IMG/VR virus record: IMGVR_UViG_2563366840_000007
Coordinates: 1 to 19,454 of that record
Source: a virus
Lineage: Duplodnaviria; Heunggongvirae; Uroviricota; Caudoviricetes
DNA: 19,454 bases
Direction: 5' to 3' (one strand)
Below are positions 12,736-19,454 of the stretch, piece by piece. The first letter of the stretch is position 1; every line of letters begins with the position of its first letter. The notes below the pieces were generated by a model. That model was not told where the DNA came from and did not search any database. It saw only the letters and a list, made by a program, of their open reading frames with translations. Made by a program: the position numbers and the translations under genes.

Positions 12736-13605
<870 letters not shown>

Positions 13606-13683
13606 CTAAGCCTTTGAATTTACAAGTACAAAAAGATACTTTTCCTCATAATGTGAATTAATTTTATGTTTCGTTTGATGATT

Positions 13684-13749
13684 GGACCGGTCTCGAAAAC
13701 CGGAGTAGGGGCAACTCTACCGGGGGGGCAAATCCCCCTCTCTCCGCCA
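13684..13749 (+). other. Class II tRNA 3' fragment (tRNA-Ser, anticodon CGA), degenerate; probable relic att site
   Basis: CCGGT-CTCGAAA-ACCGG anticodon stem-loop with CGA anticodon, long variable arm, G-run/CAAAT/CCCCC T-arm lacking the canonical TTC, acceptor 3' strand ending GCCA; no 5' half (D-arm, acceptor 5' strand) is present upstream. Confidence 0.6.
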
Positions 13750-14332
13750 CTTTATCAATGACTTATCTCCCGACTTCCCGCCTTGCTTTTCCTAAACAGA
13801 ACAATCGTAGAATATTCTTGAAGGGTTAGATCGTCACTGTTTTCTGTTCGATACTGTGACATTCAGCACTTGATTCGCTATGGATCTGACAGGAAGGTTT
13901 CGAGCGAAAATCTGCAGTTATTCAGTCGTTTTCTTATCGGTCACCATTATTCTTTTAGACATTGATCCTACAAAGCTGCCGCAAAGTTGGTGGTGGGAAC
14001 TGAAGTTGCGTAGAGAAGGGGTCAATACCCGGAGGCAAACATGGGCTGGCAAAAGTGTAGCGGTATTAGGCGCAGCTATTTAGCCTAGTTATGTTTTATG
14101 AAAACTTGATATCATATAAGTGTCTTACTTATTGGCTGTAAATAAGGTTTTCTAAGGAATTGTTTCTTTAGTATCATTTGTAACTGTAACGGAATTTATA
14201 ATCCTTTACTTTATTTTTACGGTATTTTTTATCACACCCTATTTTTTATGTGGTTTTTTATACTGAAGTTTGGCAAAGTGAACTTTATATGCATATACTT
14301 CATCCTGGTTTCAGTTAAATTGGGTGGATGAT

Positions 14333-15076
14333 ATGGCAACTACATGTTCAGTTATATTGATTTTGGAGTCCTTTGATGTTTATTTCGGAAAAGAGAGTGT
14401 GTTTCTGGATAGAGGTTTATCTGTACTTGTCGACTCTAGCTATAGAGATTTTTTCCTGACATATCCTGAAAGAGTGATAGTGGCGGATTTTGGCGCTGAG
14501 TTTATTAGTCGCTATTTGAAAGCTAATAACTTAAGGGATATTTCTGATTGTAGGGAATATCCATCTTATTTAAAAATAAACTTTGCTGACTTCAGTTTAA
14601 TTAAAGGATTAATTAGTTGGGCTAATCACTGTGCTGAATATATAGAAATTTTTGATGAGTCTATTGCTTTTACATGTCTCTCTGCATTTTCTTCTGAAAA
14701 ACAATTTGGAGTATTTCTGTTTGGATGTTTGAAAAGCACAGGGGCTAAAGTTAAAACGATTATTCATACGGATTTATCTGCACCATGGCATCTTAAGGAT
14801 ATATCATCAAGATTATATCTCAGCGAAAGTTTACTAAAGAGGAAATTGAAAGAAGAGGGGGTATCATTCAGTAAGATCCTACTTGATGAGAGGATGCAAA
14901 TGGCTGAATATTTACTCAGCACTCGTTGTTATCCTATTAGTAAAGTAGCTAAGGTCTGTGGTTATGCCAGTGTCTCATACTTTACTTATGTATTTAGACG
15001 TTATTTTGGTGTTTCTCCAAGTCAATACTCTCAGAGGAGTTCAGAAAGTAAAATTCTTACTCACCAGGGAATCTAA
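14333..15076 (+). CDS. AraC/XylS-family transcriptional regulator (AppY/Rns-like class)
   Basis: 247 aa from ATG 14333 (GGTGG RBS); C-terminal dual helix-turn-helix region (...KVAKVCGYASVSYFTYVFRRYFGVSPSQY); gene and upstream 250 bp are visibly AT-rich with repeated T-tracts. Confidence 0.8.
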   Translation: MATTCSVILILESFDVYFGKESVFLDRGLSVLVDSSYRDFFLTYPERVIVADFGAEFISRYLKANNLRDISDCREYPSYLKINFADFSLIKGLISWANHCAEYIEIFDESIAFTCLSAFSSEKQFGVFLFGCLKSTGAKVKTIIHTDLSAPWHLKDISSRLYLSESLLKRKLKEEGVSFSKILLDERMQMAEYLLSTRCYPISKVAKVCGYASVSYFTYVFRRYFGVSPSQYSQRSSESKILTHQGI

Positions 15077-15082
15077 TCATTG

Positions 15083-15345
15083 TTCTTGCCCCCTTATTTC
15101 CAGACAGGGGGTGTATCTTAAGTTAACGTTACCCGCTGACGTCGATATTCTCGCGGAGAGCGATAACCCAACGTACTGTGCGGATGGTTTTCATTGTAAT
15201 GTTCGATCGCCACTGCAAGATTATGCAATGCCGTTCTTATATTCGGTTTCGGCATGAACGCGATGTAGTCTTCCTTCATCGTTTTCACGAACCTTTCTGC
15301 CATTCCATTACTCTGAGGACTGCTGATTACCCATGAGGAGTACAA
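15083..15345 (-). mobile_element. Truncated IS2-like (IS3 family) element: terminal inverted repeat plus 3' end of the transposase gene
   Basis: - strand reads ...CCCCCTGTCTGGAAATAAGGGGGCAAG, resembling the IS2 terminal repeat; adjacent ORF encodes ...[16 protein letters not shown]...[19 protein letters not shown], the C-terminal integrase-core tail of IS2 OrfB; the upstream two-thirds of the element is absent. Confidence 0.6.
15118..15345 (-). pseudogene. IS3-family transposase OrfB C-terminal fragment
   Basis: Only about 64 C-terminal residues of an rve-domain transposase; the first ~10 codons of the track ORF do not match the family. Confidence 0.6.
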
Positions 15346-15565
15346 TTAAACGGGTTAATCAGTTTCTCCATTTGAAAGAAAAAAGACTTCTGTACTGTTT
15401 GATATCACCGCTATTTTCTTATTTTCTGTGCAGGTCGTAGTGGGACAAAACTGAGACACATAAGGCCTCACAATGGCTTGCAAGGCTTTACATGTTTTGA
15501 TGTGGTGGGACGTGTGAGCGCAGTGTTGATGGGGTAATACTTTGAATTAGAAGCGGATTCTTATG

Positions 15566-15611
15566 ATTCGTAATGCGAAGGTCGTAGGTTCGACTCCTAT
15601 TATCGGCACCA
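15566..15611 (+). other. tRNA-Thr 3' fragment (thrW-like 46-nt att core); probable prophage attR
   Basis: ATTCGTAATGCGAAGGTCGTAGGTTCGACTCCTATTATCGGCACCA contains half an anticodon stem-loop, a canonical GGTTCGACTCC T-arm and an acceptor strand ending CCA; no 5' half upstream; P22/SfV-type phages use a 46-bp core identical to the thrW 3' end. Confidence 0.7.
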
Positions 15612-15890
15612 TTAAAATCAAATTGTTACGTAAGATCTTATCATTCTCCCACCAAAAAATTATCTTAATGTAACAGCTGGTGTAAGTAAATTCTATCAAC
15701 GAAGATCAATCTTATCTACTGACCAAAAAGGCCTGATAGGGCTTCGCTCACTATACATCCTTGGCTGCAGGTTTAGTTGTACACCACTCCTAAATTTAAT
15801 GTGTTGGCAATGTGTTCAATAAAGCTCGAACAAATTAGCTCATTATGATCGGTTAATACTTCAACTTCTGGTTGCATGATTGTTTGTCCG

Positions 15891-15927
15891 TAAAAAGATA
15901 ACGCGCCTGCCGGGTAGTAGCAGGCGC
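15891..15927 (-). terminator. Rho-independent terminator downstream of the toxin gene
   Basis: GCGCCTGC-CGGGTAGTA-GCAGGCGC perfect 8-bp stem followed on the - strand by a TTATCTTTTTAC run. Confidence 0.45.
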
Positions 15928-15992
15928 ATTACGCAATAGGTAAACAAGGGAGGAAGTTCAGAAATGTAAATCGGGAAGGTTGTACGCAATGT

Positions 15993-16672
<680 letters not shown>

Positions 16673-16690
16673 TACAGTTCTCCACTATTG

Positions 16691-16912
16691 TCAGTTCAGG
16701 GTGATGCTCATCAGGCAGGTATAGGGCCCATTGCGGTCCTGGCGGCGTTCGGCGTATACCGCGAGGACTCCGGCGATATCCGGAACGTCCCTGTCGGTGT
16801 AATGACAGACGCTACCGTGCCACTGGTATTTGCCGGTGCAGTAGCGAAAGATTCGGGACTCAGGATGCTGGCGGTATATCGTCATTGCCCTGCGTTTACT
16901 GATAATTTTCAT
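16691..16912 (-). CDS. ykfH: DUF987-family protein (YkfH/YeeT/YfjY type)
   Basis: 73 aa from ATG 16912 (GAGG RBS); the track's upstream start would overlap the RadC-like gene. Confidence 0.65.
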   Translation of the reverse strand: MKIISKRRAMTIYRQHPESRIFRYCTGKYQWHGSVCHYTDRDVPDIAGVLAVYAERRQDRNGPYTCLMSITLN

Positions 16913-16920
16913 GTAATACC

Positions 16921-17397
16921 TCAAAGCAGACCGTGTTCTGCGAACGAATAGATTTGCCTGCCACCGACAATCAGATGGTCAGGGACACGGATATCCACCA
17001 GCTGAAGCACCTGAACCAGTCGCTGCGTGAGGGTTTTGTCGGCCTGGCTAGGTGTCGTCTCGCCGGAAGGATGGTTATGCGCGAGTATCACCGCCGCCGC
17101 GTTGAAGTGCAGAGCACGTTTGACCACCTCCCGGGGATGCACCTCGGTGCGGTTAATCGTGCCGGTGAAGAGCGTTTCATGGGCAATCAACTGATTCTGG
17201 TTGTCCAGATACAACACCCGGAACTCTTCCCGTTCAAGCGCGGCCATATGCAGTCGCAGCCATTCACGTACGGCGTGGGTAGAGGTGAAGGCTACGCCGG
17301 GCTCATGCAGGTGGCGGTCCAGAGCCCTGAGCGCCCGCTGAATGAGACGCCGGTCCTGTGGCGTCATCTCGCCGGGTAAAAAGGAAAGCTGTTTCAT
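16921..17397 (-). CDS. ykfG: RadC-like JAB-domain protein
   Basis: 158 aa; contains the HNHPSG...S..D metalloprotease motif typical of RadC/JAB proteins. Confidence 0.8.
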   Translation of the reverse strand: MKQLSFLPGEMTPQDRRLIQRALRALDRHLHEPGVAFTSTHAVREWLRLHMAALEREEFRVLYLDNQNQLIAHETLFTGTINRTEVHPREVVKRALHFNAAAVILAHNHPSGETTPSQADKTLTQRLVQVLQLVDIRVPDHLIVGGRQIYSFAEHGLL

Positions 17398-17412
17398 CTG
17401 TTGCTCCTTCGG

Positions 17413-17871
17413 TCAGTCGATAATACGCAGAATGGCGTGAGCCTCTGGATGTTGCATGGCATACTCCCGCAGGCGGTAATAGTGTGCGGTCATCGCGTCA
17501 CATTCTGTACGGCAGGCATGGTGGCTATACGCAATCAGGCAGACAGCAATACCTGCTGCTTCTGCACTCATTTGGGCATCGTTACCGTTCAGGCAGTTAA
17601 ACAGACGCCATGTCTCATCGTTGTCAGGCTCGGGGGACATAAATGCGCCGCCATTGCTGAGGGTGTAGAACGACCAGATACCACCGCTGTAGCCCTCACA
17701 GAAGCGGTCCATCCAGGCGAAGATATGCGGCTCCAGGAGTAGCCACTGCGGGATAGCGCCAAAGTACTGTGGCCAGAAATCGATACGCTGTTCATCGGGG
17801 ACCGGCGTGACGGTCAGTTCAAATTCGGGTTGGTTAGCGGGTGCGAGGTCGTGCTGCGTCTGTGTTGTCAT
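17413..17871 (-). CDS. yafX: Putative antirestriction protein (YafX/YfjX family)
   Basis: 152 aa from ATG 17871 with GGAGA RBS 9 nt upstream; the track's longer N-terminal extension lacks an RBS. Confidence 0.7.
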   Translation of the reverse strand: MTTQTQHDLAPANQPEFELTVTPVPDEQRIDFWPQYFGAIPQWLLLEPHIFAWMDRFCEGYSGGIWSFYTLSNGGAFMSPEPDNDETWRLFNCLNGNDAQMSAEAAGIAVCLIAYSHHACRTECDAMTAHYYRLREYAMQHPEAHAILRIID

Positions 17872-17968
17872 GGGTATGTCTCCGTCAATAAAAACGCCAG
17901 CGGCGATGGCTGGCGTATGGGGATATAAAGTGTGTTCGGGGAGGTGAATGCGGGTAAATGCTTCGCGA

Positions 17969-18208
17969 TCAGCGGGTGGCCGTGTCTGTACGGATGCCTG
18001 AGGTGCGGATATAGCGGTTAAGACCTTCACCGGCATCCGGCTCAAAGTTCCATGCCCGCCAGACCATCCGGCCTTCAGTATCACGAACCACCAGACGGAA
18101 GTGACTGCCCTGGTCGTCTTCGAGTGTGATATTGCTGTACGTGGTAGTGACCGCTTGCGCTTGTCTCCGGGTGAAAGGCCCCGGTGGCAGCAACACGGAT
18201 TGGGTCAT
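17969..18208 (-). CDS. ykfF: DUF905-family small protein
   Basis: 79 aa from ATG 18208 with GGAG RBS; the 150-aa track ORF is an artificial N-terminal extension across the intergenic region. Confidence 0.6.
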
Positions 18209-18284
18209 TTTCGGGCTCCTGATAAAAGAAAACCCCGGCAGCCTGCTAGCTGTCGGGGTGGATTTGCTGGGGAAGATACTACTA

Positions 18285-18752
18285 TCAGTCGTTGCTGCAG
18301 TCTCCGAGAGTGGACAGAACTTTCTCAGTGTTCTTCCGGTCCGCAGTGAAGGTCCCTGCTTTGTGGTCATTGACGTAGACGTCGAACTGCCCGGCCTCAG
18401 AGATATTGCTGATGAAGTCAAACCAGGCGTTATCGCCGTTACGCCAGCCCAGGCTGGACGGAATAATGTACTGCTGGTGATCCATCACTACGGTGATAGT
18501 AGTGTCGTCATCGTGCGAACTGACCATCTTGTCATCGGCAAGGGTAAGAAAGACTGAATGCTGATAGAAACCATTCTGGTCCGGGTTCCCTGTGCAGTTG
18601 ATGGTAAACGTCTTTCCGCTGGCTTCGGTCACGCTGTATTCCGTATTGCCCTGACCGTAACCCTGCTGCCAGAACCCCGGGATAGCAGAGGCATTAAAGC
18701 TCGCGAGCAGTACACCCGCCAGCATAAACCGACTTAGTGAAAGTATTGTCAT
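18285..18752 (-). CDS. ykfB: Secreted protein of unknown function (signal peptide)
   Basis: 155 aa; N-terminal hydrophobic stretch ending ...FNASA|IPG consistent with a signal peptidase I site. Confidence 0.55.
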
Positions 18753-18774
18753 TCTTGTCTCCTTTGTCGTTGTT

Positions 18775-19218
18775 TTATTCCTGATTGTCAGGGTTCGAGG
18801 GTATCAGTAGCTGCCCCATCAGTTTGCCGTCATGGGCGTACTCAAAGTATTTTTCTTTGGTATACGGGTCCGTCACCTCCTGGTATTCCAGTTTGATGTT
18901 ATCGGCAATACACAGCGCATTCATCAGCGGCTGGATGGTTTTTTCCTGCATATCCACGAGGTAGTAGTAACTACCGCCCTCGCAGCCATCGGGCGACTCA
19001 CGGGTACGTAAGACCTGCAGGGTGAGACCTGATGAAAAGCCAACCTGTGACCATTCTTCGCTGACATCATCCTGCCGACTGACCACATCGCTGAAGCGCG
19101 GAGGCGTGAGGTCCTTAAATTTACTGATAGCTTTCAGGTCATCACTCCTGTCATCGCAGGCGCTCAGAAACAGAGTGGTGGCAACCATCGCCAGCAGAGG
19201 TAGTGTTTTACATTTCAT
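18775..19218 (-). CDS. yafY: Lipoprotein of unknown function
   Basis: 147 aa; signal peptide with lipobox LSAC (MKCKTLPLLAMVATTLFLSAC); start codon overlaps the upstream gene's stop (TAATG). Confidence 0.6.
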   Translation of the reverse strand: MKCKTLPLLAMVATTLFLSACDDRSDDLKAISKFKDLTPPRFSDVVSRQDDVSEEWSQVGFSSGLTLQVLRTRESPDGCEGGSYYYLVDMQEKTIQPLMNALCIADNIKLEYQEVTDPYTKEKYFEYAHDGKLMGQLLIPSNPDNQE

Positions 19219-19454
19219 TATTTTTTCCCTGAAATCAGACGTACCACTTTGGCAAAGACATAAATGCCGACGAAAATACCCACCGGCACGCCGACGAACG
19301 GTGTCAGCGCGACACTGGCAGCACCGGCTGCGCCACCTCCCGTCAGCAGTGCGGCAACAGTGGCAAGGGTCAGGGCCGCGAGACTGTCGGACACCCCGGT
19401 TTTGTTCAGAATGATGACGATGACAACAATGGCGATAATGGCAATAACGGGCAT
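19218..19454 (-). CDS. Small hydrophobic membrane protein, possibly 5'-partial at window end
   Basis: 78 codons, strongly hydrophobic with Gly/Ala-rich predicted transmembrane segments; ORF reaches the window edge. Confidence 0.4.
   Translation of the reverse strand: MPVIAIIAIVVIVIILNKTGVSDSLAALTLATVAALLTGGGAAGAASVALTPFVGVPVGIFVGIYVFAKVVRLISGKK

What the first reader, a model, noticed from the sequence alone, without database searches (positions are those of the whole stretch)
13750..15565. AT-rich islet with an AraC/XylS-family regulator abutting a truncated IS2
Between the two tRNA fragments the composition shifts sharply to AT-rich. It holds one regulator gene of the AppY/Rns/PerA class, preceded by ~250 bp with repeated T-tracts (typical of H-NS-silenced promoters). 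An IS2-like terminal repeat begins only 7 bp after its stop codon. Such prophage-borne regulators often control chromosomal acid-resistance or virulence regulons; its targets here are unknown.
Basis: partly seen in the sequence, partly recalled or inferred. Interest (0 to 1): 0.45.

Follow-up and report, generated by a model that had tools for sequence, protein, structure and literature searches.

The report
Known prophage acid-resistance regulator PatE
The AT-rich gene is an intact copy of patE, a phage-carried AraC-type regulator already shown in E. coli O157:H7 to switch on acid-resistance genes, so the finding is real but ordinary.

Summary
The window is the right end of a lambdoid E. coli prophage integrated at thrW.

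The truly AT-rich core is 14084-15080: a 27.8% GC upstream region plus a 34.5% GC gene. It holds one intact 247-aa AraC/XylS regulator at 14333-15076.

That protein is 98% identical (242/247) to ECs_0287 of O157 Sakai, and its neighbourhood matches prophage Sp1/CP-933H. CP-933H has only one AraC gene, Z0321, which is PatE. PatE is a published, RpoS-dependent activator of gadE/gadBC/hdeAB and a repressor of LEE.

PatE is 27-37% identical to PsrA, YdeO, GadW, AppY and GadX. It resembles Rns/ToxT only in overall architecture.

The element abutting it is not IS2. It is a 248-bp remnant of an IS2-group IS3-family element, about 70% identical to IS2, starting 4 nt after the stop codon.

Left of the core lie a 56-bp IS630-family remnant, 278 bp of chromosomal serU-yodB spacer and a 66-nt serU attR relic. 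These are fossils of earlier illegitimate recombination.

The same 1.65-kb mosaic occurs in about 12% of complete E. coli genomes, at thrW and at att-lambda, and in three phage genome records (ev099, mEp332, PhiR70_1).

H-NS silencing was not tested. Novelty: already known.

The parts
13684..13749 (+). Relic attR: the 3' 66 nt of tRNA-Ser serU, with TT->GG in the T-loop
   Evidence: It aligns to K-12 serU with 2 mismatches. The same fragment is annotated as a tRNA-Ser pseudogene at the right end of prophage SerU-LTIIb. ARAGORN finds no intact tRNA.
13750..14027 (+). 278 bp of E. coli chromosomal DNA, the serU-to-yodB intergenic spacer, captured in the phage arm
   Evidence: Window 13684-14027 is 97.1% identical to the K-12 serU downstream region and 97.4% to the SerU-LTIIb flank. 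Homology stops at 14027/14028.
14028..14083 (+). Right-terminal ~56 bp of an IS630-family element, truncated on its left side
   Evidence: It is 98% identical to the 3' end of an IS630-family element in Nissle 1917 and many other genomes. The match covers the end of the transposase CDS plus the terminus, and similarity ends at 14083.
14084..14332 (+). AT-rich (27.8% GC) patE upstream region with four T5-6 tracts (14214-14259) and a sigma70-like promoter TTGGCA-18-TATACT at 14270-14299
   Evidence: Composition and T-run counts are and the promoter scan (10 of 12 matches). The region is found only with patE loci. Promoter function was not tested.
14333..15076 (+). patE: intact 247-aa AraC/XylS-family regulator, ortholog of EHEC Z0321/ECs_0287
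   Evidence: Supported by Pfam HTH_18/HTH_AraC hits and 242/247 identity to ECs_0287. The ATG start gives the MxxxCSVI N-terminus shared with YdeO, AppY, GadW and PsrA. The modelled DNA-binding domain superposes on the GadX domain (TM 0.87-0.89).
15081..15328 (-). 248-bp right-end remnant of an IS2-group (IS3-family) element: terminal inverted repeat plus the C-terminal ~70 codons of the transposase
   Evidence: The terminus aligns to the IS2 right inverted repeat. Pfam rve_3 and the NCBIfam IS2 TnpB model (positions 224-290 of 301) both match. Sakai annotates it 'ISEc48 Family: IS3 partial'. It is about 70% identical to IS2 at nucleotide level. The window lacks about 300 bp that Sakai and ev099 keep.
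15329..15565 (+). Phage arm of the attachment site of thrW-integrating phages
   Evidence: Window 15326-15523 is 97.5% identical to phage PhiR29_1. Window 15441-15620 is 96-98% identical to SfI/SfII/SfIV/SfV regions, which the SfI and SfII (AF021347) records annotate as attP/integration site.
15566..15611 (+). Current attR core: the 3' 46 nt of tRNA-Thr thrW, which marks the end of the prophage
   Evidence: It is identical to thrW of Sakai. A CP4-6-like element (ykfI/yafW) follows it.

Best explanation
The gene at 14333-15076 is patE, a cargo ('moron') gene at the extreme right end of a lambdoid prophage integrated in thrW. It encodes a two-domain AraC/XylS activator.

By orthology with the EHEC protein, it is transcribed from its own AT-rich promoter, mainly in stationary phase and in an RpoS-dependent way. 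Its C-terminal double helix-turn-helix binds AT-rich sites upstream of hdeA (mapped to -132..-45 in EDL933). It raises gadE, gadBC and hdeAB expression, and so raises acid resistance. In LEE-positive hosts it also lowers type III secretion gene expression.

Shown here: the identity of the gene, its intactness, its domain make-up, its position, and its spread among prophages and phage genome records. Taken from the literature for the 98%-identical O157 allele: the targets, the RpoS dependence and the acid-resistance phenotype. Inferred and untested: that this allele, with five substitutions, does the same in this host, and that H-NS silences the promoter.

The islet is a mosaic. The 997-bp AT-rich core is bracketed by the outward-facing ends of two decayed insertion sequences. 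The left one is fused to 278 bp of chromosomal DNA and a serU attR relic. An ancestor prophage therefore sat at serU and acquired neighbouring DNA by illegitimate recombination. The resulting block now travels between lambdoid phages.
For: Identity and position:
- The window protein is 242/247 identical to Sakai ECs_0287.
- The gene order (pin invertase, GIY-YIG gene, serU relic, regulator, IS remnant, thrW core) is the same as in Sakai Sp1 and EDL933 CP-933H.
- CP-933H contains a single AraC-family gene.
- Z0321 is the 'putative regulator (prophage CP-933H), O-island 8' (PMC2907692), and PatE is encoded by z0321 on OI-8 (PMC10877973).

Published function and expression:
- Targets and the acid-resistance phenotype come from the same review.
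- The PLoS Genet AppY paper says PatE and PsrB regulate AR2-system genes, as AppY does (PMC10057817).
- Z0321 is 6-fold RpoS-dependent.
- ECs0287 rises 2.9 log2 in the interval just after the stationary-phase transition point.

Family placement and structure:
- The best NCBIfam hit is YdeO over the full length (148 bits), followed by GadX.
- The best solved-structure sequence hit is the GadX DNA-binding domain (E 2.4e-24).
- In the model, the DNA-binding domain matches GadX at TM 0.87-0.89, and the full length matches Rns/CsvR/ToxT.

Intactness and spread:
- Eight of eight sampled alleles have intact ORFs.
- The protein clusters hold 134 and 1788 members.
- 645 of 5426 complete genomes carry the locus.
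- Window 13688-15328 is 98.3-98.7% identical in phages PhiR70_1, ev099 and mEp332.
- The module also sits in prophages at att-lambda, next to ybhB/bioA.

Mosaic anatomy.
Against: - No experiment here or in the literature I could read used this allele. It differs from the O157 protein at D26E, L29S, Y37S, H153R and L183I.
- Among the eight alleles compared, 12 segregating codons change the amino acid and only 2 are silent. This hints at relaxed or diversifying selection rather than strong constraint, though the numbers are too small to test.
- Two phage alleles carry G131E and G137E at positions invariant in the family alignment.
- The primary PatE and PsrB papers (PMC3416394, PMC4288888) were not available, so the functional statements rest on reviews and on citing papers.
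- The predicted promoter is only a consensus match. The region has fewer such matches than shuffled sequence (3 against a mean of 5.1).
Confidence: 0.9

Rival explanations
1. The gene is decaying cargo. It is still an open reading frame but no longer under selection for function in this lineage. On this view it is a passenger trapped between IS remnants that hitch-hikes with the prophage.
For: There are 12 amino-acid-changing against 2 silent segregating codons among eight alleles. Two phage alleles have changes at family-invariant glycines. The surroundings are a junkyard of IS and att remnants. In other strains IS1 has inserted upstream, once between the predicted promoter and the start codon.
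Against: All eight sampled copies are intact and 247 aa long. Thousands of database members are full length. The five substitutions in this allele fall at variable positions or restore residues seen in YdeO, GadW or AppY. The O157 allele has a demonstrated phenotype and is well expressed.
Confidence: 0.1
2. The regulator mainly controls phage functions, such as the adjacent invertible tail-fibre segment, lysogeny or superinfection exclusion, rather than host genes.
For: It lies a few hundred bases from the pin-type invertase and tail-fibre assembly genes. It is kept in three phage genome records.
Against: It sits outside the phage's own regulatory and late operons. It is separated from the phage genes by a serU relic, host DNA and an IS remnant. 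It is also found next to different tail-fibre modules, in prophages with and without the pin/GIY-YIG genes. Its closest characterised relatives all act on host acid-resistance promoters.
Confidence: 0.04
3. It has the same fold but a different regulon. Because of its five substitutions and a LEE-negative commensal-type host, this allele may act on targets other than the GAD/hde system.
For: Relatives with 27-37% identity (YdeO, AppY, GadW, GadX, PsrA) have overlapping but distinct regulons. Two substitutions (H153R, L183I) lie at the start of, or inside, the DNA-binding domain.
Against: 98% identity is far closer than any pair of regulators known to differ in targets. PatE and PsrB are reported to share the hdeA binding region, and PatE is only 37% identical to PsrB's 90%-identical homolog PsrA.
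Confidence: 0.06

Closest known systems
PatE (Z0321 / ECs_0287) of E. coli O157:H7 prophage CP-933H / Sp1
   Same: 247 aa, 98% identical. It occupies the same place at the right end of a thrW lambdoid prophage, between the GIY-YIG gene with the serU relic and the IS remnant. The upstream region is the same (97-98% nt identity).
   Different: There are five amino-acid substitutions. The IS remnant is about 300 bp shorter. The prophage here keeps a full set of tail genes, whereas Sp1 is a 10.6-kb remnant. The neighbour beyond thrW is a CP4-6-like element rather than P4-like Sp2.
PsrA / PsrB (prophage-encoded secretion regulators, EHEC)
   Same: Both are prophage-borne AraC-like activators of gadE and hdeA. 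They share the N-terminal xxxCSVI motif and the same domain order. PsrB is reported to bind the same hdeA region as PatE.
   Different: Only 37% identical to PsrA. psrA sits between the Q antiterminator and the tRNA/late region, not at the tail-fibre/attR end.
AppY of cryptic prophage DLP12 (E. coli K-12)
   Same: It is an AraC-like regulator placed after the tail-fibre assembly genes at the right end of a lambdoid prophage. It directly activates gadE and AR2 genes.
   Different: 28% identity. DLP12 is integrated elsewhere, and appY is followed by ompT rather than an IS remnant.
YdeO, GadW and GadX (chromosomal acid-resistance regulators)
   Same: These are the closest curated family models and the closest solved DNA-binding domain. 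YdeO aligns over the full length. All converge on gadE.
   Different: 27-34% identity. Scores are far below the curated equivalog cut-offs (148 against 348 bits for YdeO, 112 against 500 for GadX). They are chromosomal rather than phage-borne.
Rns / CsvR / ToxT class
   Same: Overall two-domain architecture. These give the best full-length structural matches to the model.
   Different: 17-21% identity in the Foldseek alignments, and sequence similarity is largely confined to the DNA-binding half. The model's N-terminal domain has low confidence, so the fatty-acid pocket could not be assessed.
IS2
   Same: The remnant has a similar terminal inverted repeat, including the TTTCCAGACA core, and the same C-terminal transposase segment.
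   Different: Only about 70% nucleotide identity. Sakai annotates it as ISEc48 (IS3 family). A fuller relative, 93.6% identical, exists in strain EV36.

Membership tests
AraC/XylS transcription factors | C-terminal ~100-aa domain with two helix-turn-helix motifs | tested here: met
   Pfam HTH_18 scores 58.1 bits (cut-off 33.6) over residues 161-238. HTH_AraC scores 59.9 bits (cut-off 26.6) in two stretches. The modelled domain superposes on the GadX DNA-binding domain at TM 0.87-0.89, rmsd 1.8.
PatE (Z0321/ECs_0287) orthologs | Near-identical full-length protein | tested here: met
   242/247 identical with no gaps. The window protein itself is the 100% hit P0001 (134 members), and a second cluster, P0002 (1788 members), is 98% identical.
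PatE (Z0321/ECs_0287) orthologs | Same genomic position: right end of the thrW lambdoid prophage (CP-933H/Sp1), the only AraC gene there | tested here: met
   Window 13400-15331 aligns collinearly to Sakai Sp1 at 97.8% identity. Annotated maps of Sakai and EDL933 agree. The link from Z0321 to CP-933H and OI-8 comes from PMC2907692 and PMC10877973.
PatE (Z0321/ECs_0287) orthologs | Activates gadE/gadBC/hdeAB, binds the hdeA promoter and raises acid resistance | not testable with these tools
   Known only from published work on EDL933, as summarised in PMC10877973. The primary paper was not available.
YdeO (NCBIfam NF007407 equivalog) | Score at or above the curated cut-off of 348 bits | tested here: not met
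   148 bits, aligned over 1-235 of the protein and 1-233 of the 253-position model. 34% identity to K-12 YdeO.
GadX (NCBIfam NF007432 equivalog) | Score at or above the curated cut-off of 500 bits | tested here: not met
   112 bits, covering the C-terminal half only. 27% identity.
Rns/CfaD/AggR/PerA class | Close sequence relationship over both domains | tested here: not met
   phmmer E about 5e-16 to Rns and 3.4e-16 to CsvR, restricted to residues ~70/105-232. Identity is 17-21% in the structural alignments. PerA itself was not compared.
IS2 | Near-identity to IS2. By my own recollection, ISfinder treats above 90% nucleotide identity as the same element. | tested here: not met
   About 70% nucleotide identity to IS2 copies.
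IS3 family, IS2 group | DDE transposase (rve) C-terminus and a terminal inverted repeat beginning with TG | tested here: met
   rve_3 scores 59.5 bits. The NCBIfam IS2 TnpB model matches positions 224-290 of 301. The terminus TGTTCTTGCCCCCTTATTTCCAGACA aligns to the IS2 right inverted repeat. Sakai annotates it 'ISEc48 Family: IS3 partial'.
H-NS-silenced (xenogeneic) promoter | AT-rich DNA with A/T tracts | tested here: met
   27.8% GC with four T5-6 tracts. The tracts are no more numerous than the composition predicts.
H-NS-silenced (xenogeneic) promoter | H-NS occupancy, and derepression in an hns mutant | not testable with these tools
   I found no data in the searchable literature. Z0321 is well expressed in stationary-phase wild type (log2 12.4), so any silencing is not absolute.
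Prophage attR at a tRNA gene | Direct copy of the tRNA 3' end at the prophage boundary, preceded by a phage attP arm | tested here: met
   The thrW 3' 46 nt are identical. The preceding 125-237 bp match attP regions of thrW-integrating phages.

The most novel reading that the evidence does not exclude
The patE block (serU attR relic, 278 bp of host spacer, IS630 stump, patE, IS2-like stump) may be a preserved record of how a phage 'moron' was made. On this reading a prophage once resident at serU picked up adjacent DNA by aberrant excision or illegitimate recombination. The resulting 1.65-kb cassette has since moved by recombination between lambdoid phages with different integrases (thrW, att-lambda) and remains in isolated phages. 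A smaller possibility is that recurrent IS1/IS421 insertions just upstream act as on-switches for an otherwise silenced regulator.
Probability: 0.45. Interest if true: 0.3.

Novelty: already known. Interest (0 to 1): 0.15.

Why it matters
PatE-type regulators let a prophage plug into the host's acid-resistance circuit. That circuit affects survival in the stomach, and in EHEC it also affects the timing of type III secretion. This window shows the gene is not specific to O157. About one in eight complete E. coli genomes carries it, including commensal-type strains, on prophages that look complete, and it is also present in three phage genome records. That point matters modestly for anyone studying acid tolerance across E. 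coli lineages. The gene, its family and its function are already described, so nothing here changes current understanding.

Tried and rejected
- Intact tRNAs. ARAGORN found none, and Rfam gave only sub-threshold hits to the serU fragment. The fragments had to be confirmed by direct alignment.
- A native chromosomal home for patE. Two scans of species-representative genomes, one with the single protein and one with a family alignment, returned only YdeO-like genes (35-37% identity) and one ~51% homolog in a MAG labelled Candidatus Nanosynbacter. I take that MAG hit to be E. coli contamination, which I did not check.
- An ancestral arrangement with patE between serU and yodB. A chimeric patE+yodB query found no complete genome with the two within ~1.3 kb of each other.
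- patE as an IS passenger inside a composite transposon. Rejected, because both IS remnants have their outer ends facing patE, they belong to different families, and the 15-nt inverted match at 14133/15092 is at chance level.
- An Rns/AggR-type binding site (WWWWWWWTATC) as an autoregulation signal. There is one match upstream, at 14223, and four in the window against 0.84 expected. Its spacing to the -10 hexamer is wrong for that class. Not pursued.
- The 67-aa ORF at 13880-14083. It spans the host-DNA/IS630 junction and has no Pfam or PHROG hit, so I treat it as spurious.
- Primary papers. The PatE and PsrB papers could not be opened.
- Other dead ends. One literature search on the bare word 'PatE' was swamped by unrelated uses. 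RefSeq NC_002655 (the original EDL933 record with Z tags) is not in the collection.
Full report
**What is in the window.** The window is E. coli DNA. It matches strain 2EC1 at 99.8% over 13500-15900. In that genome the surrounding genes are lambdoid tail genes, a tail fibre and its assembly gene, a LEM-3-like GIY-YIG gene, an AraC-family regulator and a partial 'integrase core domain' (transposase) gene. The ykfI/yafW toxin-antitoxin pair of a CP4-6-like element follows. The finding therefore lies at the extreme right end of a lambdoid prophage.

**Checking the observation.**
- The lowest-GC kilobase of the window starts at 14051 (33.2%, against 51.9% overall).
- The 248 bp upstream of the gene are 27.8% GC and the gene itself is 34.5%.
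- ARAGORN finds no intact tRNA. Direct alignment shows 13684-13749 is the 3' 66 nt of serU with two T-loop mismatches, and 15566-15611 is the 3' 46 nt of thrW with none.
- The ORF is intact. The ATG at 14333 gives an N-terminus (MATTCSVILI) that lines up with YdeO, AppY, GadW and PsrA, so I prefer it to the GTG at 14324.
- Four T5-6 tracts lie at 14214-14259. Just downstream is a sigma70-like TTGGCA-18-TATACT at 14270-14299.
- The T-tract count is the highest in the window but equals what this base composition predicts. The promoter is only a consensus match.
- The IS terminus starts at 15081, 4 nt after the stop codon.

**Identity of the regulator.**
- Pfam places it in the AraC/XylS family.
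- The best curated model is YdeO over the full length, but far below its cut-off (148 against 348 bits). GadX is next.
- The closest solved structure by sequence is the GadX DNA-binding domain (E 2.4e-24). Rns, CsvR and ToxT follow at about 1e-16 to 1e-13.
- In O157:H7 Sakai, prophage Sp1 at thrW has the same order: pinE, ECs_0285 (GIY-YIG), ECs_0287 ('transcription regulator', 744 nt), then an 'ISEc48 Family: IS3 partial' repeat.
- The window protein is 242/247 identical to ECs_0287, and window 13400-15331 aligns to Sp1 at 97.8%.
- EDL933 has the identical arrangement, with a single AraC-family gene in that prophage.
- Z0321 is listed as 'putative regulator (prophage CP-933H), O-island 8' (PMC2907692), and PatE is encoded by z0321 on OI-8 (PMC10877973).
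- The gene is therefore patE.

**What is known about PatE.** All of this comes from published work on EDL933.
- According to the review, PatE activates gadB, gadC, gadE and hdeAB, acts through a cis-element at -132..-45 of the hdeA promoter, and negatively regulates six LEE genes.
- Z0321 is 6-fold RpoS-dependent and well expressed in stationary phase.
- The AppY study groups PatE and PsrB with AppY as prophage AraC-type regulators that act on the AR2 system.
- I could not open the primary PatE and PsrB papers.

**Family placement.**
- Identities to the window protein are PsrA 37%, YdeO 34%, GadW 33%, AppY 28%, GadX 27% and EnvY 26%.
- A PatE clade has variants at 79-82% identity. A sister clade of 243-aa proteins is about 50% identical.
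- The sister clade is also prophage-borne but sits between the Q antiterminator and the lysis genes. psrA likewise lies downstream of Q, ahead of the tRNA genes.
- appY occupies the same kind of position as patE, after the tail-fibre assembly genes at the end of DLP12.
- PHROGs holds the family as phrog_1450, 'unknown function'.
- An AlphaFold model from 11 sequences is confident only for the DNA-binding domain (mean pLDDT 67.6). That domain matches GadX at TM 0.87-0.89. The full-length matches are Rns, CsvR and ToxT at 17-21% identity.
By sequence the gene belongs to the E. coli acid-resistance group.

**Anatomy of the islet.** The interval 13750-15565 is a mosaic.
- 13684-14027 is 97% identical to K-12 serU plus 278 bp of the serU-yodB spacer. 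It also matches the right junction of the serU prophage SerU-LTIIb.
- Homology ends at 14027.
- The next 56 bp (14028-14083) are 98% identical to the right terminus of an IS630-family element. In Nissle 1917 the same sequence spans the end of the transposase gene and the element's end.
- The AT-rich core runs from 14084 to 15080.
- At 15081 begins the right end of an IS2-group element, about 70% identical to IS2. Only 248 bp are kept here, whereas Sakai and ev099 keep about 300 bp more.
- 15329-15565 matches sequence next to, and including, the attP sites of thrW-integrating phages (PhiR29_1, SfI/II/IV/V).
- The thrW core follows.
- The patE core is therefore bracketed by the outer ends of two unrelated, decayed insertion sequences. 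The left one is fused to host DNA and an old attR.

**Origin.**
- A serU 3' fragment in the same orientation as the present attR, followed by serU-flanking host DNA, is what the right junction of a serU prophage looks like.
- Its presence inside a phage arm implies an illegitimate event that carried the junction and adjacent DNA into a phage genome.
- I cannot say whether patE was host or phage DNA at that time.
- No complete genome has patE near yodB, and no PatE-clade gene turned up outside E. coli.
- The block 13688-15328 is shared at 98.3-98.7% by phages PhiR70_1, ev099 and mEp332, which have complete or full-length genome records. In ev099 it lies between the tail-fibre assembly gene and int/xis. 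It is also shared by prophages at att-lambda next to ybhB/bioA.
- A single assembly event followed by spread through recombination among lambdoid phages is the simplest reading.

**Distribution and state.**
- 645 of 5426 complete E. coli genomes carry at least 80% of the upstream region plus gene at 95% identity or better.
- All eight alleles I extracted are intact.
- Between them, 12 codons vary with an amino-acid change and 2 vary silently. This is too few to test but is not the signature of strong constraint.
- The window allele differs from the common one at five positions. These are variable in the family or match YdeO, GadW or AppY.
- Insertions upstream of patE recur in other strains: IS1 at 14127/8 and at 14317/8, and another IS1 and IS421 elsewhere at the locus.

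**Verdict.** The gene is already named and characterised. The new details are the exact mosaic, the serU fossil and the presence of the block in phage genomes and at two attachment sites. These are descriptive. Interest is low.

Noticed in passing
window 13684-14027: A serU attR relic (66 nt) plus 278 bp of chromosomal serU-yodB spacer sit inside the arm of a prophage that is now integrated at thrW. This is a fossil of an earlier serU residence and of illegitimate capture of host DNA.
   Followed up: yes
window 14028-14083: A 56-bp right-end stump of an IS630-family element is fused at 14027/14028 to the serU spacer. Its outer end faces patE, next to a CTAG at 14085-14088. By my recollection CTAG is the preferred IS630 target.
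   Followed up: yes
L013 (strain E06) and L014 (strain Res13-Lact-PER04-33); window equivalents 14127/8 and 14317/8: IS1 has inserted upstream of patE at two different points. In Res13 it lies between the predicted -10 hexamer and the start codon. Another IS1 and IS421 insertions at the locus appear in further strains. These could change patE expression.
   Followed up: partly
window 15328/15329: The IS2-like remnant is about 300 bp shorter than in Sakai Sp1 and phage ev099. It joins directly to a PhiR29/Sf-type attP arm, so this is a separate recombination junction specific to this lineage.
   Followed up: partly
patE alleles in L008 (ev099) and L009 (mEp332): Both phage alleles carry G131E and G137E at positions invariant across the PatE family alignment. 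Across eight alleles, amino-acid-changing codons outnumber silent ones 12 to 2.
   Followed up: partly
L022 5665-6395 and L023 5664-6377 (other E. coli prophages): A sister clade of 243-aa AraC-like regulators, about 50% identical to PatE, sits between the Q antiterminator and the lysis genes. About 926 records match at 60-80% nucleotide identity. They are annotated only as 'helix-turn-helix domain-containing protein', and one copy is frameshifted.
   Followed up: partly
window 12736-13560 (-): A LEM-3-like GIY-YIG domain ORF (274 aa as listed; RefSeq annotates 257 aa) matches phrog_5356, 'unknown function'. It is conserved next to the patE block in thrW prophages but absent from the att-lambda prophages and from ev099/mEp332.
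   Followed up: no
window 13880-14083 (+): A 67-aa ORF runs across the host-DNA/IS630 junction and has no family hit. It is almost certainly not a gene.
   Followed up: yes
window 15612-19454: Directly after the thrW core comes a CP4-6-like element (ykfI/yafW toxin-antitoxin, DUF987, JAB-domain gene, antirestriction gene). Two mobile elements therefore sit in tandem at thrW, as Sp1 and Sp2 do in Sakai.
   Followed up: no
window 14223-14233: TATTTTTTATC matches the AggR/Rns site consensus WWWWWWWTATC exactly, about 60 bp upstream of the predicted -10 hexamer. This is likely chance in DNA this AT-rich, and the spacing does not fit that class.
   Followed up: partly
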